Of a stretch of DNA of 37,467 bases, positions 8 to 9,826 are shown one piece after another. The stretch is from a virus: UHGV virus genome UHGV-0220213. One strand, written 5' to 3'. Position 1 is the first letter of the stretch. The number at the start of each line of letters is the position of its first letter. The position numbers were made by a program, and so were the translations under genes. The notes beneath the pieces were generated by a model. That model saw nothing but the letters and a program-made list of their open reading frames with translations. It was not told where the DNA came from and did not search any database.

Positions 8-1996
8 ATGAAAGAATGGTATACAGCAAAAGAGTTGCTCGGTTTGGCAGGTTTACCAAAGCAAGCCACTAACATTACACGTAAGGCACAAAGAGAAGGC
101 TGGGAGTTCAGGCAGGTTGCAGGGACTAAAGGTGTATCATTTGAATTCAATATCAAATCATTCCCTGTCGCATTACGTGCTGAAATTCTGTTGCAACAAG
201 GGAGAATTGAAACAAGCCTGGGCCGTTTTGAAATCGCCCGCCCCACGCTGGAAGCCCATGATTATGATCGTGAGGTGCTGTGGAGCAAATGGGATAAAGC
301 CAGCGATTCCCAGCGCAGACTTGCTGAAAAATGGTTGCCTGCGGTTCAGGCTGCAGACGAAATGCTGAACCAGGGGATTTCAACGAAAACGGCTTTTGCG
401 ACCGTTGCAGGGCATTACCAGGTCAGCGCATCCACTTTGCGGGACAAGTATTACCAGGTACAGAAGTTTGCGAAGCCTGACTGGGCGGCTGCACTTGTTG
501 ATGGACGTGGTGCATCCCGTCGCAATGTTCACAAAAGTGAATTTGACGAGGATGCCTGGCAGTTTCTGATTGCAGATTATCTGCGACCGGAAAAACCCGC
601 CTTCCGCAAATGTTATGAGCGTCTGGAACTGGCAGCCCGCGAGCATGGCTGGAGTATTCCCTCCCGTGCCACGGCCTTTCGCCGGATTCAGCAACTGGAC
701 GAGGCAATGGTTGTTGCCTGTCGTGAAGGTGAACATGCACTGATGCATCTGATACCGGCACAGCAGCGAACTGTGGAACACCTGGACGCCATGCAGTGGA
801 TCAACGGCGACGGTTATCTGCATAACGTCTTTGTACGCTGGTTTAACGGTGATGTGATCCGTCCGAAAACATGGTTCTGGCAGGATGTGAAAACCCGAAA
901 AATTCTGGGCTGGCGCTGCGATGTGAGCGAGAACATTGATTCAATTCGCCTCTCGTTCATGGATGTTGTGACTCGCTACGGTATCCCGGAGGATTTTCAC
1001 ATCACCATTGATAACACCCGTGGTGCTGCGAATAAATGGCTGACGGGAGGCGCGCCCAATCGCTACCGCTTTAAGGTGAAAGAAGACGATCCAAAGGGAT
1101 TGTTTTTACTGATGGGTGCGAAAATGCACTGGACAAGCGTTGTTGCCGGTAAAGGCTGGGGCCAGGCAAAACCTGTTGAACGTGCTTTCGGTGTTGGTGG
1201 GCTTGAGGAATACGTTGATAAGCATCCGGCACTGGCTGGCGCATATACGGGGCCAAATCCGCAGGCAAAACCTGATAACTATGGCAACCGCGCTGTTGAT
1301 GCAGAGCTGTTTCTGAAAACCCTTGCCGAAGGTGTGGCGATGTTCAATGCCAGAACAGGCCGTGAAACAGAAATGTGCGGGGGCAAACTCTCGTTTGATG
1401 ATGTTTTCGAGCGTGAATACGCCAGAACGATTGTGCGTAAGCCAACCGAAGAACAAAAACGGATGCTGTTACTGCCTGCCGAGGCGGTGAACGTTTCACG
1501 CAAAGGCGAGTTTACGCTTAAAGTTGGCGGCTCCCTTAAAGGCGCGAAAAACGTTTATTACAACATGGCATTAATGAATGCCGGCGTGAAAAAAGTTGTG
1601 GTCAGGTTTGATCCGCAGCAGCTACACAGCACGGTTTATTGTTACACCCTGGACGGTCGGTTTATCTGTGAAGCGGAATGTCTGGCACCTGTTGCATTTA
1701 ATGATGCTGCGGCAGGCCGTGAATATCGCCGCCGCCAGAAACAACTGAAATCTGCAACTAAAGCAGCCATTAAGGCGCAGAAACAAATGGACGCGCTGGA
1801 AGTTGCTGAACTGCTGCCGCAGATAGCCGAACCAGCAGCACCAGAATCACGAATTGTTGGTATTTTCCGGCCTTCCGGTAATACGGAACGGGTGAAGAAT
1901 CAGGAGCGTGATGATGAATACGAAACTGAGCGTGATGAATATCTGAATCATTCGCTGGATATTCTGGAACAGAACAGACGTAAAAAAGCCATTTAA
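8..1996 (+). CDS. A: DDE transposase MuA (662 aa)
   Basis: Translation matches recalled Mu transposase A along most of its length; the N-terminal ~60 aa diverge from canonical Mu (D108-like). First gene of the window. Confidence 0.93.
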
Positions 1997-2034
1997 TTAA
2001 CGTTTAAACAAAATTTAATTACGAGGTTATTCAG

Positions 2035-2973
2035 ATGAATATTTCCGATATTCGCGCAGGACTGCGCACGCTTGTAGAAAATGAAGAAACCACCTTTAAA
2101 CAAATTGCTCTTGAGAGCGGACTTTCTACCGGAACTATCAGTAGTTTTATCAATGATAAGTACAACGGGGATAACGAGCGTGTTTCACAAATTCTGCAAC
2201 GCTGGCTGGAAAAATATCATGCAGTTGCAGAACTACCTGAACCGCCCCGCTTTGTGGAAACGCAGACGGTAAAACAAATCTGGACAAGTATGCGTTTTGC
2301 CAGCCTGACTGAAAGTATTGCTGTTGTATGTGGCAATCCTGGTGTGGGCAAAACCGAAGCGGCCCGTGAATATCGCCGCACCAATAACAATGTCTGGATG
2401 ATCACCATTACGCCATCCTGTGCCAGCGTTCTGGAATGTCTTACTGAACTGGCGTTTGAGCTGGGAATGAATGACGCACCACGCCGTAAAGGGCCGCTCT
2501 CCCGCGCCCTGCGACGTCGCCTTGAAGGTACACAGGGGCTGGTTATCATCGACGAAGCTGATCATCTTGGTGCCGAAGTTCTGGAAGAACTCCGCCTGTT
2601 ACAGGAATCAACCCGTATTGGCCTTGTGCTGATGGGAAATCACCGGGTTTATTCAAATATGACGGGGGGTAACAGAACGGTTGAATTTGCCCGTCTGTTT
2701 TCCCGTATTGCAAAGCGCACTGCAATTAATAAAACCAAAAAAGCCGATGTAAAAGCTATTGCGGATGCCTGGCAGATTAACGGCGAAAAAGAACTGGAGT
2801 TATTACAGCAGATTGCGCAGAAACCAGGTGCGCTTCGTATTCTGAATCATTCACTTCGCCTTGCCGCCATGACGGCTCACGGTAAAGGTGAGCGTGTTAA
2901 CGAAGATTATCTGCGTCAGGCTTTCCGTGAATTAGACCTGGACGTTGATATTTCAACGCTGCTGCGTAATTAA
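2035..2973 (+). CDS. B: Transposition target-DNA activator MuB, AAA+ ATPase (312 aa)
   Basis: 312 aa as in Mu B; Walker A motif GNPGVGKT; directly downstream of A. Confidence 0.93.
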   Translation: MNISDIRAGLRTLVENEETTFKQIALESGLSTGTISSFINDKYNGDNERVSQILQRWLEKYHAVAELPEPPRFVETQTVKQIWTSMRFASLTESIAVVCGNPGVGKTEAAREYRRTNNNVWMITITPSCASVLECLTELAFELGMNDAPRRKGPLSRALRRRLEGTQGLVIIDEADHLGAEVLEELRLLQESTRIGLVLMGNHRVYSNMTGGNRTVEFARLFSRIAKRTAINKTKKADVKAIADAWQINGEKELELLQQIAQKPGALRILNHSLRLAAMTAHGKGERVNEDYLRQAFRELDLDVDISTLLRN

Positions 2974-2988
2974 GAAGGAGAAGAAATT

Positions 2989-3216
2989 ATGATGGCCCGA
3001 AATATAAAAATGGCAACGGATGCGCAGAATTGGTTACAGGCGCGCGGGAGTCATGTAAATGAATCATATCTCGGCGTGGCGCGTCCGATTCTTGAAATCA
3101 CTTACCCACCGGTGGAACTGGTAAAAAACGCGGTCAGAATTATGGAGCATAAGTCCGGGGTGGCCCGTTCTGTATGGACGGCCCGTCTTAATGGTTGCCA
3201 GATTATCTGGAGATAA
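2989..3216 (+). CDS. kil: Kil-like host cell division inhibitor (75 aa)
   Basis: Position immediately after B, size about 74 aa as Mu kil; SD AAGGAGAAG upstream. Confidence 0.7.
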
Positions 3217-3218
3217 CG

Positions 3219-3449
3219 ATGTGTATTAAAGCTGAAAAATATATTGAATGGGTTAAACACTGTCAGTGCCACGGGGTGCCGCTGACGACATATAAATGCC
3301 CCGGATGCGGTGAACAGATTATGACGCAATGCTCACCCGAAAAGGAAATTCGGGATTCCCTGACATGTTGTCCGTGGTGCAGCGCAGTTTTCTTTAAGCA
3401 GGTAAAAGGCGCGAAGGTAAAAGCCAGCGCAGTTATTCAGAATCAATAA
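3219..3449 (+). CDS. Small early protein with CxxC...CxxC zinc-ribbon-like motifs (Mu gp6-like)
   Basis: ORF frame 3195-3449; the ATG at 3219 follows the kil stop; two CPxC pairs. Confidence 0.6.
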   Translation: MCIKAEKYIEWVKHCQCHGVPLTTYKCPGCGEQIMTQCSPEKEIRDSLTCCPWCSAVFFKQVKGAKVKASAVIQNQ

Positions 3450-3460
3450 GGTGAAACAAA

Positions 3461-3730
3461 ATGGCAAAAGTAATCTTTGAATTTAACAATACAAGAAATA
3501 TTGAGTTTCAGGAAAATGGAGGTTTTGCCGTAAATATGAATGTGCGACTGGAAGAATCCTCACCTGAGGACCAGACCGGGCCACATGATGTAATGGCAGG
3601 CATCATCAAGAGCATGGCTCCTGAAATCATTAAAAAAGCGACCGAGGAGTTGTTGAAATCAGCCAGGGAGCTTGGGCTGGAAGCTGAGGGGAAATTATTC
3701 AGCTATAACCCGAATACAGCCAGACATTAA
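3461..3730 (+). CDS. Early-region hypothetical protein (89 aa)
   Basis: ORF with upstream SD; early-operon position. Confidence 0.6.
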   Translation: MAKVIFEFNNTRNIEFQENGGFAVNMNVRLEESSPEDQTGPHDVMAGIIKSMAPEIIKKATEELLKSARELGLEAEGKLFSYNPNTARH

Positions 3731-3750
3731 TTCGCAAAGGAACGCTGACA

Positions 3751-4170
3751 ATGAACGTCAAGACCCGAAATGAAATTCAGGCATTAATCCGAATTCAGGA
3801 ACGCAATAACAACGGTGGTGAATTACGCGAGTTTATTTGCGCCCGGAAAGTTGATGATTGTGGTGAAAAGACTTACCTGATTGCTTTCGACCATTACAGC
3901 ATCTGTGCACGTTATTGCGGCGAAAGCATATCCCGCGCCATTGCATTTGGCGGTGCGTTCAACGTGGATTTATGGGAGTACGTCATGGACCGGGAATACA
4001 TCTGCGCATCAGACCCTGAGGCCCGTGAAATGTGGCAGCGTATCTGGCGCGATTACCGGTTAATGGCAAAAGGCTGGGCGCGCTGCTGTTATTCCTCGCT
4101 TGCCCTGAAAGCGGTTCAGTTATCGCTGCGGCATATTCAGGCATCACTGCGCGAGCCTCTGCTGTACTGA
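3751..4170 (+). CDS. Early-region hypothetical protein (139 aa), Cys-rich
   Basis: ORF with SD AAAGGAA upstream; tightly packed in the early operon. Confidence 0.6.
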   Translation: MNVKTRNEIQALIRIQERNNNGGELREFICARKVDDCGEKTYLIAFDHYSICARYCGESISRAIAFGGAFNVDLWEYVMDREYICASDPEAREMWQRIWRDYRLMAKGWARCCYSSLALKAVQLSLRHIQASLREPLLY

Positions 4171-4470
4171 ATGGTGACTGACATGAAGTGTAATCGTAAG
4201 CGCTGGTCACGCGAAGACCGGGAATTTATCGAAGCCAACGTCGGGAAAATGACCATTGAAGAAATGGCGGAAAAACTGAAAGTCGCCACAACCGCCCTCC
4301 GGGCACATGCCAGAAGGCACGGAATATCATTGTGTGTATACCGAATCAGTGAACACGACAAATATTTATGTCGTGAACTTTATAAAGAAGGACTGGATAT
4401 TCATGTCATTGCCCGAAAGATGGAATTAAGCAATCGTGCTGTATCCAGCATTGTATACAGCGGATATTAA
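4171..4470 (+). CDS. Early-region small protein with predicted HTH segments (99 aa)
   Basis: Starts right at the upstream stop (alternative ATG at 4183); helix-turn-helix-like stretch MTIEEMAEKLKVATTALRAHARRHG. Confidence 0.55.
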   Translation: MVTDMKCNRKRWSREDREFIEANVGKMTIEEMAEKLKVATTALRAHARRHGISLCVYRISEHDKYLCRELYKEGLDIHVIARKMELSNRAVSSIVYSGY

Positions 4471-5643: not shown

Positions 5644-6173
5644 TGTTTTTTAAAACGTCAAATCCCGCAGCACTGCTGGCATGGGACCAGTTTATGGCGG
5701 ACTGCCTGAAACTACGCGAAGAAGCCCGCCATCTTGATAAGGTTCTGGGTTGTGGTTGCCGGTCAGTATTCAGCACAGGTATTGGTGGGCGTCATTTTCA
5801 TGGCGTGAATTTTCCGGGGAATGAGCGACCTTTCTCGCCGGAGTTGTGGACTGTACAACGCTCCGCATCAGGTAACAGTTGCAGGCCAAGAACATCGCGC
5901 ATTCCTGCACATCTGCGGGAGCAGTCAAAAGAGCTGGCGAAAATATGGCAGGAGAATATTCCGGTCACTTATGCCCGTACTGACGCTCTCTTACCCGCAC
6001 TGGGACTGGATTTCAGCGCAACAATATTCGGCCCGCTCCGGTGGTTCCGTGTTGGTGATGTGATTTACGTCATGACAGGGATGACTCCCGCACAGGGCCG
6101 CATGACTGAAATCCTTTCTGACGAATTTATCCGGGCGCAAAAACAGGCGGAGGTAAACAATGGAAAACAATGA
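5643..6173 (+). CDS. Early semi-essential region protein (about 176 aa)
   Basis: ATG at 5643 overlaps the upstream stop; same frame as track ORF 5604-6173. Confidence 0.55.
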   Translation: MFFKTSNPAALLAWDQFMADCLKLREEARHLDKVLGCGCRSVFSTGIGGRHFHGVNFPGNERPFSPELWTVQRSASGNSCRPRTSRIPAHLREQSKELAKIWQENIPVTYARTDALLPALGLDFSATIFGPLRWFRVGDVIYVMTGMTPAQGRMTEILSDEFIRAQKQAEVNNGKQ

Positions 6174-6342
6174 AACATCGTATTCGTGGCTGGGGAAATT
6201 TACCACGGTGAAACAGGAATGCCCGACCTGCGGTAATGAATCCCCTGAATATCTGAAAGAGTGCCCTCATTGTGGCGGGCAGAAATGCAACCACTGCGAT
6301 ATGGGCGACGACACGGCGTGCATGAATTGTGAAGGTGAGTGA
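6160..6342 (+). CDS. Small Cys-rich zinc-ribbon protein (60 aa, four CxxC pairs)
   Basis: Strong SD GGAGGT six nt upstream of the ATG; CPTCG...CPHCG...CNHCD...CMNCE. Confidence 0.6.
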   Translation: MENNETSYSWLGKFTTVKQECPTCGNESPEYLKECPHCGGQKCNHCDMGDDTACMNCEGE

Positions 6343-6343
6343 T

Positions 6344-6655
6344 ATGAATAATGGTGTATTTTCAAAATCAGAAGAGCTTGCCGCCCTGCTGATTGCCGGT
6401 GGTTTGCCGAAAAAAGAAGTGCATGACTTTGTGAATTTTGTATATGAGCCGTCTCATGAAAAAGCTATTGATGAAGTCATGGCGTACCGGTTTGGCATTA
6501 TTGCTGAGTCACTGAGTCCTCACTGGATTATTGAAAATCTCCGCACTATTGCTGATGGTAACGATAAAGTGGCGGCTGTCGCCGCCCTTGATGTGCTGCA
6601 ACGTATGAACCGGGAACTATTCAATCCCGAGTTTCTTTTTAAGAAACGAGGTTAA
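6344..6655 (+). CDS. Early-region hypothetical protein (about 103 aa)
   Basis: SD AGGTGA five nt upstream of the ATG at 6344; last + strand ORF before the coding gap. Confidence 0.55.
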   Translation: MNNGVFSKSEELAALLIAGGLPKKEVHDFVNFVYEPSHEKAIDEVMAYRFGIIAESLSPHWIIENLRTIADGNDKVAAVAALDVLQRMNRELFNPEFLFKKRG

Positions 6656-7033
6656 CCACTGTTTGCCGACGTCTGTTACGAGCGTCATCGGGGCGTCGGC
6701 AAGGTCCTGTTTTATGCGCTCAAGAATGGGTTTTTGATGTAGTGCTTTCGCAAAATCATGACCATCTTGTGTAAGTCTGACACTGGTGCCTGAATATGAA
6801 TATCCGAGGCTTGTTGGGGTGAGACCAATGCTTTTTGCGGTGCCTGTTTCCAGATATCTGTTGCTGATAAAACCATTTTCAACCAGCAACAGAAGATGGA
6901 AAACCAGCTTCTGATGGCTGTCGCTGTGCCGCTGAGAACGATCCCAGCCGACATCTTCCAGTCGAATGAATGCGGTGTCGGCCTCCAGAAAAACATCAAA
7001 TATTCTGGCTATCTCGTCATAATCAATTTTCAT
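6617..7033 (-). CDS. Opposite-strand hypothetical protein (138 aa), function unknown
   Basis: Only ORF filling the ~400 bp + strand coding gap between 6655 and gemA; SD AAGGAA about 8 nt upstream of its ATG on the minus strand; balanced, protein-like composition. Confidence 0.5.
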   Translation of the reverse strand: MKIDYDEIARIFDVFLEADTAFIRLEDVGWDRSQRHSDSHQKLVFHLLLLVENGFISNRYLETGTAKSIGLTPTSLGYSYSGTSVRLTQDGHDFAKALHQKPILERIKQDLADAPMTLVTDVGKQWLTSFLKKKLGIE

Positions 7034-7063
7034 ATCTCATTCCTTAATATGAGAGGTGAGCAA

Positions 7064-7615
7064 ATGAATCGCACATCGCTTATTAAATTAATCCATGTCG
7101 CCCGTCGGGAGCTACAACTCGACGATGACACTTACCGCGCCTTTCTGATGCAGAAAACGGGCAAAACCAGTTGCCGCGAGCTGACGGTTACGCAACTGGA
7201 ACAGACGCTCGATGCAATGAAAGAACGCGGCTTTAAGAAGCTGAATAAACATCCACGTCGCCGCTTTAAGGAACATGTCACGCCCCGCGAGAAGGTGTAC
7301 AAAGTCTGGCAGCAGATGGCAGAAGACGGTTTTATTACCGATGGCGGTGATGTGGCGCTGGATAAATATGTTCAGCGCCTGACCGCGAAACGCAACGGCG
7401 GACAGGGCGTTTCCACACTGGCGTGGTGTCATGGCGACACGCTGCTGACAGTCCTCGAAACACTCAAGCAGTGGCACATCCGCTGTATTCATGAAGCCTT
7501 TTCCCGTCACGGGCTTCCATTGCCGGTCAGTCCGTCCGGTCGTGAACTGCGCGGCTATGATGCCATGACGGCGGCTTATGCCCATGCCAGAAAGACGCGG
7601 AGGATGGCACAATGA
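7064..7615 (+). CDS. gemA: GemA-like early regulator (183 aa)
   Basis: ATG at 7064 preceded by SD GAGAGGTGAG; directly upstream of and overlapping mor (ATGA), as in Mu. Confidence 0.8.
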   Translation: MNRTSLIKLIHVARRELQLDDDTYRAFLMQKTGKTSCRELTVTQLEQTLDAMKERGFKKLNKHPRRRFKEHVTPREKVYKVWQQMAEDGFITDGGDVALDKYVQRLTAKRNGGQGVSTLAWCHGDTLLTVLETLKQWHIRCIHEAFSRHGLPLPVSPSGRELRGYDAMTAAYAHARKTRRMAQ

Positions 7616-8001
7616 CGGAAGATTTATTTGGTGATTTGCAGGATGACACCATCCTAGCACATCTTGACAATCCCGCAGAGGATACGTCACGCTTTCCGGC
7701 ACTGCTGGCGGAGCTGAACGATTTACTACGCGGGGAATTGTCCCGGCTGGGTGTTGATCCTGCCCATTCACTGGAGATTGTTGTGGCTATCTGTAAGCAT
7801 CTGGGCGGCGGTCAGGTCTACATTCCACGCGGTCAGGTTCTGGACTCGCTGATTCGGGATTTGCGTATCTGGAATGATTTTAACGGTCGCAACGTCAGCG
7901 AACTGACCACCCGTTATGGTGTCACTTTCAATACGGTTTACAAGGCCATTCGCCGGATGCGACGGCTGAAATACCGCCAGTACCAGCCCTCACTTCTGTA
8001 A
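7612..8001 (+). CDS. mor: Mor, activator of the middle promoter (129 aa)
   Basis: 129 aa; Mor/C-family C-terminal HTH; followed by an intrinsic terminator. Confidence 0.88.
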   Translation: MTEDLFGDLQDDTILAHLDNPAEDTSRFPALLAELNDLLRGELSRLGVDPAHSLEIVVAICKHLGGGQVYIPRGQVLDSLIRDLRIWNDFNGRNVSELTTRYGVTFNTVYKAIRRMRRLKYRQYQPSLL

Positions 8002-8007
8002 ACAGTA

Positions 8008-8031
8008 AAGCCGGTTAATCCGGCTTTTTTT
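8008..8031 (+). terminator. Rho-independent terminator ending the early operon (Mu t9.2 equivalent)
   Basis: Stem AAGCCGG / CCGGCTT with loop TTAAT, then a run of 7 T. Confidence 0.8.
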
Positions 8032-8078
8032 ACGTCCTCAATATCCTGTGATGAATAACCGTACCGGGGGAAATCATC
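8008..8078 (+). promoter_or_regulatory. Candidate middle promoter Pm with Mor-binding dyad
   Basis: By position, between the early terminator and the first middle gene; the terminator dyad could double as an activator site. Exact -10/-35 not assigned. Confidence 0.35.
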
Positions 8079-8297
8079 ATGGGTAAAGGCTGGAATGCAT
8101 CCTTTCATCTTGGCAGACGTGAGCGGCTGCGTCAGGAGGTTTTGCACCGTGTCGCCGGTGGGCCACGGCCTGCGCCCCGCGACTATACCGGTCATGATGG
8201 CACCCACGGCAGTTATTACATGAAAGGCTGGCAGTCAGTTGATATGCCGGAAATTCTTCATCATTGCCTGCTTTACAGGGAGAAACATTATGTCTGA
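8079..8297 (+). CDS. Middle-region hypothetical protein (72 aa, Mu gp18-like position)
   Basis: ORF with SD GGGGGAAA upstream. Confidence 0.5.
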   Translation: MGKGWNASFHLGRRERLRQEVLHRVAGGPRPAPRDYTGHDGTHGSYYMKGWQSVDMPEILHHCLLYREKHYV

Positions 8298-8652
8298 GCG
8301 TTCTGCTCGTCAGTGGCCTGATTTTTTATCGGTGGTATTACTGGCGCTGTTATTGTGGATAAGTCTGTTTTGTGGCTGGCGCGCGCTGATGTTTTGCTGT
8401 GCCTCGGTTTTCAGTGTTGCTTTATGTGTTGCCGCTGATTGTCTGGATGCGCTGATAATGAGCTGCCGGGTGCCTGAACATTTTGCCCGGTTCGTCTGGC
8501 CTCTGACCTGGCTGGGGAGTCTGTCCGGGCTGGGATTAGCCGTGATGGCAGCGTCTCAACTGAAAACGGGTCCTGAGCATGTCATCTGGGCGCTGGCCGG
8601 ATTGCTGACGTTCTGGCTCTCCTTTCGTTTTCGCGCTCGTCTGTTCGGGTAA
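8290..8652 (+). CDS. Multi-pass membrane protein (about 120 aa, Mu gp19-like position)
   Basis: ATG at 8290 in frame of track ORF 8239-8652; several hydrophobic helices. Confidence 0.55.
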   Translation: MSERSARQWPDFLSVVLLALLLWISLFCGWRALMFCCASVFSVALCVAADCLDALIMSCRVPEHFARFVWPLTWLGSLSGLGLAVMAASQLKTGPEHVIWALAGLLTFWLSFRFRARLFG

Positions 8653-8661
8653 AGGGGCACC

Positions 8662-8781
8662 ATGTACAGAAAATTCAGTGATGAATGTTTCGGGCCGTCC
8701 ACGCTGATGAGTGCGATAAAAGTGATTGCCCTTGTGGTTCTGATAACCATCAGTGCCGTGGTGTATCTTTCTGTCTGTTAA
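8662..8781 (+). CDS. Small single-TM membrane protein (39 aa, Mu gp20-like position)
   Basis: ATG 8662 to TAA 8779-8781; hydrophobic stretch IKVIALVVLITISAVVYL. Below the size cut-off of the ORF track. Confidence 0.4.
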   Translation: MYRKFSDECFGPSTLMSAIKVIALVVLITISAVVYLSVC

Positions 8782-8793
8782 CCGGGGGAAAAT

Positions 8794-9216
8794 ATGCAGC
8801 ATGATTTATTTGAACACGATCCGGCAATTCGCCAGTTAATCGGACATATTGATAACATCCCGGCCCCGGAACTGGAATCACGCTGGCCCCGTTCGGTGGT
8901 TGATCTGATTGATGTTCTGGAAAACGAACTGAAACGCCAGAACGTCAGCAATCCCCGTGAGCTTGCCCGTAAACAGGCCGTTGCCCTGTCCTGTTTTCTG
9001 GGCGGGCGGCAGTTTTACATCCCCTGCGGCGATACGATCCTGACCGCGTTACGCGACGATTTGCTTTACTGCCAGTTCAATGGTCGTAACATGGAAGAAC
9101 TGCGTCGCCAGTATCGCCTGTCCCAGCCGCAGATCTACCAGATTATTGCCCGCCAGAGAAAGCTGCATACACGACGTCATCAGCCTGATCTGTTCTCACC
9201 TGAAAGCCAGAAATAA
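8794..9216 (+). CDS. C: C, late-gene transcription activator (140 aa)
   Basis: 140 aa; Mor/C family with conserved C-terminal DNA-binding region. Confidence 0.88.
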   Translation: MQHDLFEHDPAIRQLIGHIDNIPAPELESRWPRSVVDLIDVLENELKRQNVSNPRELARKQAVALSCFLGGRQFYIPCGDTILTALRDDLLYCQFNGRNMEELRRQYRLSQPQIYQIIARQRKLHTRRHQPDLFSPESQK

Positions 9217-9240
9217 CCGGCATCCTGCCGGTTATTTCCT
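9215..9240 (+). terminator. Hairpin after C (possible middle-transcript terminator)
   Basis: Stem AACCGGCA / TGCCGGTT with loop TCC, followed by ATTTCCT (weak U-tract). Confidence 0.5.
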
Positions 9241-9307
9241 GTCACCATAATCCCGCACCTGCCATCTGATTTTTTAGACTGCCATCAGAGCATTTTTTCA
9301 GGGAAGC
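9241..9307 (+). promoter_or_regulatory. Candidate C-dependent late promoter Plys
   Basis: Intergenic region directly upstream of the endolysin gene. Assigned by position only. Confidence 0.4.
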
Positions 9308-9826
9308 ATGATGGCGGGAATACCAAAAAAACTGAAAGCCGCACTGCTGGCGGCAACGATTGCCGGTGGCGGTGTGGGGGGTTATCAGGAAATGACCCGT
9401 CAGTCTCTGATCCATCTGGAAAATATCGCTTATATGCCTTACCGCGATATTGCCGGTGTGCTTACGGTCTGTGTGGGACATACCGGGCCGGATATCGAAA
9501 TGCGCCGTTACAGCCATGCGGAGTGTATGGCTCTTCTCGACAGTGATTTAAAACCGGTTTATGCGGCAATCGATCGTCTTGTCAGGGTGCCGCTGACGCC
9601 ATATCAGAAAACGGCGCTGGCAACGTTTATTTTCAACACCGGTGTTACCGCATTCAGTAAATCAACGCTGCTGAAAAAACTCAATGCCGGTGATTACGCC
9701 GGAGCGCGTGACCAGATGGCCCGCTGGGTGTTTGCCGCAGGCCATAAATGGAAAGGACTGATGAACCGTCGCGAAGTGGAAATGGCTATCTGGAATATCA
9801 GGGGGGCGGATGACCTTCGCCAGTAA
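9308..9826 (+). CDS. lys: SAR endolysin, T4-lysozyme-like glycosidase (172 aa)
   Basis: N-terminal Gly/Ala-rich weakly hydrophobic signal-anchor-release segment (AALLAATIAGGGVGG), then a lysozyme-like domain. Confidence 0.85.
   Translation: MMAGIPKKLKAALLAATIAGGGVGGYQEMTRQSLIHLENIAYMPYRDIAGVLTVCVGHTGPDIEMRRYSHAECMALLDSDLKPVYAAIDRLVRVPLTPYQKTALATFIFNTGVTAFSKSTLLKKLNAGDYAGARDQMARWVFAAGHKWKGLMNRREVEMAIWNIRGADDLRQ

What the first reader, a model, noticed from the sequence alone, without database searches (positions are those of the whole stretch)
6617..7033. Opposite-strand 138-aa ORF in the only coding gap of the rightward early operon
Every other early gene from A to mor is on the + strand and tightly packed, with overlapping stops and starts. 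Between 6655 and the gemA start at 7064 there is no + strand ORF of 60 aa or more; the gap is filled by a minus-strand ORF with a good SD (AAGGAA about 8 nt before its ATG) and a balanced, non-repetitive composition, unlike the Cys/His/Arg-rich antisense artefacts elsewhere in the window. It converges on and overlaps the 3' end of the preceding + gene by 39 nt and sits about 30 bp from gemA. I do not recall a leftward gene at this place on the canonical Mu map, so it may be an unannotated accessory gene (for example host-takeover, anti-defence or lysogeny-expressed). I cannot assign a fold from sequence alone.
Basis: partly seen in the sequence, partly recalled or inferred. Interest (0 to 1): 0.62.

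Follow-up and report, generated by a model that had tools for sequence, protein, structure and literature searches.

The report
Leftward DUF2513 accessory gene in Mu-like prophage
The opposite-strand ORF is a real, conserved small winged-helix gene of unknown function, already annotated in public E. coli genomes as a "DUF2513 domain-containing protein", and it sits in an exchangeable slot just upstream of gemA in Mu-like phages; it is a sound observation but not a new kind of thing.

Summary
The ORF at 6617-7033 (-) exists as described: 138 aa, AAGGAA Shine-Dalgarno, 39-nt tail-to-tail overlap with the preceding + gene, 30 nt from the gemA ATG. It is a genuine gene. It matches PHROG 585 over its full length (E 2.6e-31). 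Homologues of about 136 aa at 30-62% identity sit at the same place and orientation in divergent Escherichia and Salmonella Mu-like prophages. dN/dS is 0.05-0.27. It is not unannotated: the exact protein occurs on 636 public contigs as "DUF2513 domain-containing protein". The AlphaFold model (pLDDT 90.6) is a winged helix-turn-helix plus three C-terminal helices; the family is acidic and has no characterised member. Relative to SfMu, window 6596-7063 is a discrete replacement cassette. Mu, SfMu and most E. coli relatives carry an unrelated 88-aa leftward gene (PHROG 8747, SfMu gp16) in the same slot, and some carry nothing. In other phages, homologues lie directly downstream of cI-type or Arc-type repressor genes or among moron-like cargo. 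Best reading: an exchangeable accessory gene, probably expressed from the prophage, encoding a non-enzymatic binding protein. No promoter was found and expression is untested. Interest is low to moderate.

The parts
6617..7033 (-). 138-aa protein-coding gene, PHROG 585, a divergent branch of DUF2513 (winged helix-turn-helix plus three C-terminal helices)
7040..7045 (-). Shine-Dalgarno AAGGAA, 6 nt before the ATG
   Evidence: Read directly from the sequence. It lies in a 36-nt stretch identical in the window, SE11 and the 62%-identity homologue locus L005.
6596..7063 (.). Replacement cassette relative to SfMu; relative to Mu the non-homologous block is 6354-7063
   Evidence: blastn: 98% identity to SfMu up to 6595, and 95-96% identity to SfMu and Mu from 7064 (the gemA ATG) onward. 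GC is 45.5% against 52.3% for the window and 54.5% for gemA.
6344..6655 (+). Convergent neighbour, an early gene of PHROG 1988 (SfMu gp14 type); its last 13 codons overlap the 3' end of the DUF2513 gene
   Evidence: PHROG 1988 E 6.1e-52. The same tail-to-tail pairing is seen in L005, L006 and L010, in about 35 of 53 IMG/VR loci, and in Kluyvera L078, where gemA lies elsewhere.
7064..7615 (+). gemA, the divergent neighbour 30 nt away, followed by mor at 7612-8001
   Evidence: Pfam GemA E 7.8e-31. 96% identity to Mu gemA starting at its ATG.
7035..7054 (.). Inverted repeat TCTCAT-N8-ATGAGA between the two start codons, spanning both ribosome-binding sites; significance unproven
   Evidence: It occurs once in the window, and 1.2 matches are expected by chance at 2 or fewer mismatches. 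The RNA hairpin is weak, with z -0.45 and -1.58.
6571..6586 (-). GC-rich 6-bp hairpin about 30 nt past the stop codon on the minus strand; a possible terminator of the leftward transcript
   Evidence: Terminator-like hit. It lies in the conserved AAVAAL codons of the PHROG 1988 gene, which is also present in SfMu, so it may be incidental.

Best explanation
The ORF is a genuine accessory gene that is already catalogued. It encodes a small acidic winged-helix protein of the PHROG 585 / DUF2513 family. In Mu-like phages it is carried as an exchangeable leftward cassette in the slot between the PHROG 1988 early gene and gemA-mor. Shown: it is coding and under purifying selection; it keeps its position and orientation across divergent Mu-like prophages; it replaces an unrelated 88-aa leftward gene found in Mu, SfMu and most E. 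coli relatives; its fold is wHTH plus a helical tail with no enzymatic motif. Inferred: because it points against the Pe early operon, it is most likely transcribed from the repressed prophage. After induction, convergent early transcription and antisense pairing over the 39-nt overlap would shut it down. Also inferred: the protein acts stoichiometrically by binding a partner (protein or nucleic acid) in prophage-host or phage-phage conflict, for example superinfection exclusion or immunity, rather than as an enzyme.
For: Coding and conservation. Same slot and orientation directly upstream of gemA in E. coli and Salmonella Mu-like prophages at 48-62% protein identity. About 33 of 53 IMG/VR loci have gemA divergent and adjacent. 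Cassette boundaries lie at gene edges and GC is lower. Alternative cargo or an empty slot in relatives. The cassette is present in only 5 of 72 E. coli genomes with this region. Truncated remnants occur in other phages, as expected for dispensable cargo. Fold. Contexts pointing to prophage expression: in L032 the homologue lies 77 nt downstream of, and on the same strand as, a cI-type repressor (HTH_3 + Peptidase_S24). In L052 it directly follows two Arc-like repressor genes. In L033 it sits among secreted-protein morons. In a related transposable phage, prophage-transcribed genes on the strand opposite the lytic operon gave superinfection exclusion (PMC9936078); this is an analogy only.
Against: No sigma-70-like promoter was found for the leftward gene in 6000-9500 or by a relaxed scan of homologous loci. 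With a 30-nt intergenic region, any promoter must lie inside gemA. No expression data exist. There are no hits to known defence proteins (PADLOC) and no literature on the family. In some lambdoid phages the homologue is co-oriented with lytic genes, for example between lysis genes and terminase in L015, so prophage-only expression is not general. The wHTH fold would also fit a DNA-binding regulator.
Confidence: 0.55

Rival explanations
1. It is a sequence-specific DNA-binding regulator of the PadR/MarR type. It would bind near the 30-nt gemA intergenic region and modulate its own expression and/or read-through into gemA-mor, acting as a brake on the switch to middle transcription.
For: wHTH fold with C-terminal helices, as in PadR/MarR dimers. 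It is divergent and adjacent to gemA-mor in most Mu-like loci. An inverted repeat spans both ribosome-binding sites within a 36-nt stretch identical in the window and in L005, which is only about 74% identical overall.
Against: The family is acidic: median pI 5.4, 97% below 7, and net charge about -5.5 over the wHTH core. There is no Pfam MarR or PadR hit even at E<=1. The palindrome is single-copy, no better than chance, and absent from the Salmonella loci. In Kluyvera the gene is not next to gemA. In non-Mu phages and genomic islands there is no gemA at all.
Confidence: 0.2
2. It is a lytic-cycle host-takeover or anti-defence protein, expressed after infection or induction.
For: It is a small acidic protein in the accessory early region, where Mu keeps gam, kil and similar genes. 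In some lambdoid phages it is co-oriented with lytic genes.
Against: In every Mu-like locus examined it is antisense to the early operon and convergent with it. That arrangement would oppose its expression exactly when Pe fires. No promoter dependent on Mor or C is evident.
Confidence: 0.12
3. It is a chance antisense ORF with no protein product.
For: No promoter was detected. Long antisense frames do occur elsewhere in the window, for example 7112..7771 (-), 219 aa.
Against: Full-length PHROG match at E 2.6e-31. 458 family representatives of conserved length. Against SE11 there are 6 synonymous changes and 1 non-synonymous change; dN/dS is 0.17-0.27 at saturating dS. The gap has no + strand gene. 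The AF2 model is confident.
Confidence: 0.02

Closest known systems
Pfam DUF2513 (PF10711) / PHROG 585, with related YjcQ (PF09639)
   Same: Full-length match to PHROG 585. A profile of the close family reaches proteins that pass the DUF2513 gathering score, one of which also matches YjcQ. NCBI names the exact protein 'DUF2513 domain-containing'. Like the family, it is a single-domain protein of about 135 aa found in phages and prophages.
   Different: The window protein itself scores only 15.9 bits against PF10711, whose gathering score is 29.6, so it belongs to a divergent enterobacterial branch. No member has a known function.
SfMu gp16 / PHROG 8747, the 88-aa leftward gene upstream of gemA in SfMu, Mu and most E. 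coli Mu-like prophages
   Same: Same slot, same leftward orientation, start codon close to the gemA start, and a 3' end that overlaps the preceding + gene.
   Different: No sequence relationship: hhalign probability 0.5%. It is 88 aa rather than 138 aa, and it overlaps a different + gene (the Mu gp14 type).
PadR/MarR-type winged-helix regulators and other small wHTH proteins (TubR, STIV F93)
   Different: No sequence-level membership. The wHTH core is acidic. The three C-terminal helices are family-specific. DNA binding is untested.
Prophage-expressed cargo genes ('morons') such as lambda rexAB downstream of cI, or the olg1 exclusion gene of transposable phage Fc02 (PMC9936078)
   Same: Presence varies among close relatives. 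GC is lower. Orientation is independent of the lytic operon. In L032 it lies directly after a cI-type repressor gene.
   Different: No promoter was identified, the terminator is uncertain, and no exclusion phenotype or lysogen expression has been shown. There is no homology to Rex, Sie or Olg proteins.

Membership tests
PHROG 585 | Significant full-length match to the family HMM | tested here: met
   E 2.6e-31, 109.6 bits, residues 1-137 on profile positions 1-127 of 128.
Pfam DUF2513 (PF10711) | Score at or above the gathering threshold of 29.6 bits | tested here: not met
   15.9 bits, E 0.017.
Pfam DUF2513 (PF10711) | Transitive homology to bona fide members | tested here: met
   Profile A1 finds P0105 and P0175 (E about 1e-18 and 3.5e-13). 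These score 48.4 and 42.4 bits on PF10711. NCBI labels the exact protein as DUF2513.
PadR/MarR winged-helix transcription regulators | wHTH fold | tested here: met
PadR/MarR winged-helix transcription regulators | Sequence membership (Pfam MarR or PadR HMMs) | tested here: not met
   No such hit at E<=1.
PadR/MarR winged-helix transcription regulators | Dimeric binding to a palindromic operator | tested here: inconclusive
   One 6+6 inverted repeat lies at 7035-7054, no better than chance, and is not conserved in the Salmonella loci. The wHTH core is acidic. Dimerisation is not testable with these tools.
Known anti-phage defence proteins (PADLOC-DB 2.0) | Match to any defence-system HMM | tested here: not met
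   0 families at E<=1.
Moron / lysogenic-conversion cargo | Present or absent among close relatives, with discrete boundaries | tested here: met
   Boundaries at 6595/6596 and 7063/7064 against SfMu. Present in 5 of 72 E. coli genomes that have this region. Alternative or empty slots.
Moron / lysogenic-conversion cargo | Own promoter and terminator | tested here: inconclusive
   No consensus promoter. A terminator-like hairpin lies at 6586-6571 (-), but inside conserved coding sequence.
Moron / lysogenic-conversion cargo | Expression from the repressed prophage | not testable with these tools
   Needs strand-specific RNA-seq or 5' RACE on a lysogen.
Canonical Mu early genes (AF083977 map) | Homologue present in Mu or D108 | tested here: not met
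   tblastn against 50,697 phage records finds no Mu, D108 or SfMu hit. Mu has gp14 and Mu_54 at this place.

The most novel reading that the evidence does not exclude
The slot just downstream of the PHROG 1988 early gene, usually directly upstream of gemA, is a dedicated site for leftward, prophage-expressed cargo in Mu-type phages. Its alternative occupants would be PHROG 8747 or DUF2513/PHROG 585. On this reading, the DUF2513 protein is an uncharacterised single-gene superinfection-exclusion or defence factor. Alternatively it is a brake on read-through into mor, whose expression is switched off by convergent early transcription on induction.
Probability: 0.25. Interest if true: 0.55.

Novelty: already known. 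Interest (0 to 1): 0.27.

Why it matters
The finding gives a function-unknown family (DUF2513 / PHROG 585, at least 458 clusters at 50% identity) a clear and experimentally tractable setting. That setting is a single leftward gene inside the otherwise unidirectional early operon of Mu-type prophages of E. coli and Salmonella. Natural controls exist, because close relatives carry a different cargo gene or an empty slot. The finding also shows that the reference Mu map is not a good guide at this locus: relatives are annotated with a leftward gene where Mu is annotated with a + strand gene, Mu_54. If the protein proved to be an exclusion or defence factor, or a regulator of the early-to-middle switch, that would be a modest addition to Mu biology. 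As it stands it is an ordinary accessory gene that is already annotated.

Tried and rejected
- **Promoters.** The consensus scan found no leftward promoter in 6300-7400 or 6000-9500. A relaxed scan of eight homologous upstream regions found only weak 8/12 matches.
- **Operator idea.** The palindrome TCTCAT-N8-ATGAGA occurs once, and about 1.2 matches are expected by chance. Its hairpin stability is not significant.
- **Family libraries.** No hits in NCBIfam or PADLOC.
- **Solved structures by sequence.** Only noise, with E of 0.16 or higher.
- **Fold searches.** Foldseek against PDB and BFVD gave only generic wHTH proteins or uncharacterised viral proteins. AFDB50 was unavailable.
- **Remote homology between the two alternative cargo genes.** A shared 'DAP' motif prompted the test; hhalign gave probability 0.5%, so it is rejected.
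- **A mobile two-gene module of PHROG 1988 plus DUF2513.** The pairing holds in Mu-like loci, including Kluyvera. It does not hold in lambdoid or other contexts, and PHROG 1988 occurs without DUF2513 in SfMu. The pairing is therefore treated as synteny.
- **Which strand codes in Mu, the 88-aa (-) ORF or Mu_54 (+).** There are too few substitutions to decide.
- **Literature.** Searches for DUF2513, PF10711, YjcQ and Mu-like leftward genes found nothing functional. The SfMu paper does not discuss gp16.
- **Other.** Rfam found no family in the window. The context look-up for P0016 found nothing on record.

Full report
**1. Observation**

The window is a Mu-type phage genome that begins at the transposase gene A (ORF 8..1996; 98.5% identity to D108 A). 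The ORF 6617..7033 (-) is present exactly as described: ATG start, 138 aa.
- AAGGAA lies 6 nt before the ATG.
- The ORF overlaps the + gene ending at 6655 by 39 nt.
- It lies 30 nt from the gemA ATG at 7064.
- One correction: the gemA frame is open back to 6896, giving a mechanical 239-aa ORF. Homology to Mu and SfMu gemA starts exactly at 7064, and PGAP starts gemA there. The gap therefore holds no independent + strand gene.

**2. It is a real gene**

- The protein matches PHROG 585 end to end (E 2.6e-31).
- A search of 5.8 billion proteins gave 29 relatives of 134-146 aa at 30-62% identity in Escherichia, Salmonella, Enterobacter, Serratia, Pantoea, Cedecea and Oceanisphaera. Invariant positions are spread along the whole length.
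- A profile search of 1.84 billion cluster representatives found 458 members. Almost all are single-domain proteins of 125-150 aa.
- The window copy differs from E. coli SE11 by 6 synonymous changes and 1 conservative change. Against homologues at 48-62% identity, dN/dS is 0.17-0.27 with saturated dS.
- GC by codon position is coding-like.
The frame is intact in all 5 complete E. coli genomes with the cassette, in 8 near-identical IMG/VR contigs, and in divergent syntenic copies.

**3. It is already annotated**

- The exact sequence is on 636 public contigs as [quoted passage not shown].
- PGAP annotates it in SE11 (WP_000687313.1) and in 22KM0354 (WP_000687312.1).
- Against Pfam DUF2513 the window protein is below threshold (15.9 bits against 29.6). 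More distant members found with the family profile pass it, and one of those also matches YjcQ. It is therefore a divergent branch of DUF2513.
- No paper in the library says anything about the family's function.

**4. Anatomy of the locus**

- Against SfMu the window is 98% identical up to 6595 and 95% identical from 7064. Window 6596-7063 is thus a discrete replacement whose right edge is the gemA start codon.
- Against Mu the unmatched block is 6354-7063.
- The cassette has 45.5% GC, against 52.3% for the window.
- In Mu the same interval holds gp14, Mu_54 (+) and an annotated semi-early promoter.
- In SfMu it holds gp15 (the Mu gp14 type) and gp16, an 88-aa leftward gene of PHROG 8747.
- PGAP annotates the same 88-aa leftward gene in other E. 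coli Mu-like prophages. One relative has nothing there.
- The 88-aa ORF is also open in Mu, inside the 1990s putative ORF "F-134".
- A leftward gene upstream of gemA is therefore the usual condition in this phage group. The window carries the rarer cargo, found in 5 of 72 E. coli genomes with this region.
- The two cargo proteins are unrelated.

**5. Conserved position**

- The DUF2513 gene sits directly upstream of, and divergent from, gemA. It is tail-to-tail with a PHROG 1988 gene, overlapping it by 30-39 nt.
- This holds for the homologue at 62% identity (E. coli) and for those at 48-54% (Salmonella). These prophages differ in their lysis, gam and GemA modules.
- Among 53 IMG/VR loci, about 33 show the gemA adjacency and about 35 show the PHROG 1988 adjacency.
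- In Kluyvera the gene still follows PHROG 1988, but it lies between gemA and mor.
- PHROG 1988 also occurs without the gene (SfMu). I therefore read the pairing as synteny and as shared recombination flanks, not as an obligate two-gene system.

**6. Contexts outside Mu-like phages**

- Directly downstream of, and co-oriented with, a cI-type repressor (HTH_3 + Peptidase_S24; L032).
- Directly after two Arc-like repressor genes (L052).
- Between lysis genes and terminase (L015).
- Next to excisionase and integrase (L014).
- Among secreted-protein morons near tail genes (L033).
- In chromosomal islands of Alcanivorax and Hydrogenovibrio, next to ORFs that by eye look nuclease-, HNH- or HicB-like; these neighbours were not searched against any library.
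- Sources for these contexts.
- Some phages retain only a C-terminal remnant.
- Together this is the distribution expected of dispensable cargo.

**7. The protein**

- The AlphaFold2 model is confident (pLDDT 90.6, pTM 0.81). It shows a winged helix-turn-helix (H5-17, H25-28, H38-52, then a three-stranded wing ending in the conserved RLTQDGHDFA motif), followed by three helices.
- Foldseek against PDB and BFVD adds nothing functional.
- There is no catalytic motif and no hit in PADLOC or NCBIfam.
- The family is acidic: median pI 5.4, and the window wHTH core has a net charge of about -5.5. This weakly disfavours classical operator binding and fits a wHTH used to bind another partner.

**8. 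Mechanism: what is shown and what is inferred**

*Shown.* The gene is real, conserved and exchangeable, and it is antisense to the early operon. Its protein is a non-enzymatic wHTH.

*Inferred.* Pe-driven early transcription must pass through it in antisense to reach gemA-mor. The gene is therefore best placed to be expressed when Pe is repressed, that is, in the lysogen. It would then be silenced on induction by convergent transcription and by the overlapping 3' ends. The repressor-adjacent positions in L032 and L052 point the same way. So does the analogy with prophage-transcribed exclusion genes of the transposable phage Fc02 (PMC9936078). I therefore favour a prophage-expressed binding protein acting in superinfection immunity or exclusion, or in lysogen maintenance.

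*Main weakness.* No promoter was found. With a 30-nt intergenic region, any promoter must lie inside gemA.

*Regulator rival.* This reading has the protein bind DNA near gemA-mor. It rests on the fold and on a palindrome at 7035-7054. That palindrome lies in a 36-nt stretch identical between the window and the locus of the 62%-identity homologue. However, it is no better than chance, it is absent from the Salmonella loci, and the gene functions in contexts without gemA.

**9. Verdict**

- The feature is already known as an annotated member of a family of unknown function.
- Interest is low to moderate. Its value is as a clean experimental entry point to DUF2513 / PHROG 585 and to the leftward cargo slot of Mu-type phages.

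Noticed in passing
L001 (Mu AF083977) locus 1887-2150 (-), record about 7899-8162; L002 (SfMu) 2191-2457 (-): Mu contains the same 88-aa leftward ORF that SfMu (gp16) and PGAP annotate (PHROG 8747, E 1e-60). The Mu reference instead annotates Mu_54 (55 aa, +) on the opposite strand, and Mu_54 has no PHROG match. Both frames are open in all four relatives compared, and there are too few substitutions to decide which strand codes.
   Followed up: partly
L006 about 5935-5975 and L010 about 5700-5740 (early-operon strand): In two Salmonella Mu-like prophages, a canonical intrinsic-terminator-like hairpin with a U-tract lies in the early-operon direction between the DUF2513 gene and the gemA ribosome-binding site. 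This implies that gemA-mor expression needs terminator read-through there. The window has only a weaker hairpin at 6662-6703 (+), followed by GGUCCUGUUUUAU.
   Followed up: partly
window 7018-7054: A 36-nt stretch (minus strand CACCTCTCATATTAAGGAATGAGATATGAAAATTGAT) covers both ribosome-binding sites and the first DUF2513 codons. It is identical in the window, SE11 and L005, although L005 is only about 74% identical overall.
   Followed up: partly
L009 4982-5386 (+ in locus; opposite to gemA and mor): One Salmonella Mu-like prophage carries a further opposite-strand 134-aa acidic ORF, inserted between gemA and mor. It has no PHROG match. It may be a second leftward cargo site.
   Followed up: partly
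L078 (Kluyvera sichuanensis) 3001-4226: The gene order is rearranged: gemA, then the PHROG 1988-like gene, then the convergent DUF2513 gene, then a secreted 119-aa protein, then mor. The DUF2513 gene stays tail-to-tail with PHROG 1988 even though gemA lies on the other side.
   Followed up: no
L058-L065 (IMG/VR), match about 4001-4162: Only the C-terminal 54 residues of the DUF2513 homologue remain (61-63% identity). They sit next to the same secreted-protein genes that flank the intact copy in L033. These appear to be decayed copies.
   Followed up: no
L032 4496-6149 (-): Next to the pair formed by the cI-type repressor and the DUF2513 homologue lies an opposite-strand two-gene module. It comprises a 169-aa predicted membrane protein (PHROG 37654) and a 380-aa protein (PHROG 24371), both of unknown function. 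It could be another cargo or defence module.
   Followed up: no
window 6896-7063 (+): The gemA reading frame is open 56 codons upstream of its real ATG, so a mechanical ORF caller reports 239 aa. The extension lies entirely in the cassette and has no homology to Mu.
   Followed up: yes
window 6160-6342 (+): A 60-aa protein (Mu gp13/E14 type) has CxxC...CxxC...CxxC-type spacing. It gives weak zinc-ribbon and DnaJ-CXXCXGXG hits, all below threshold.
   Followed up: no
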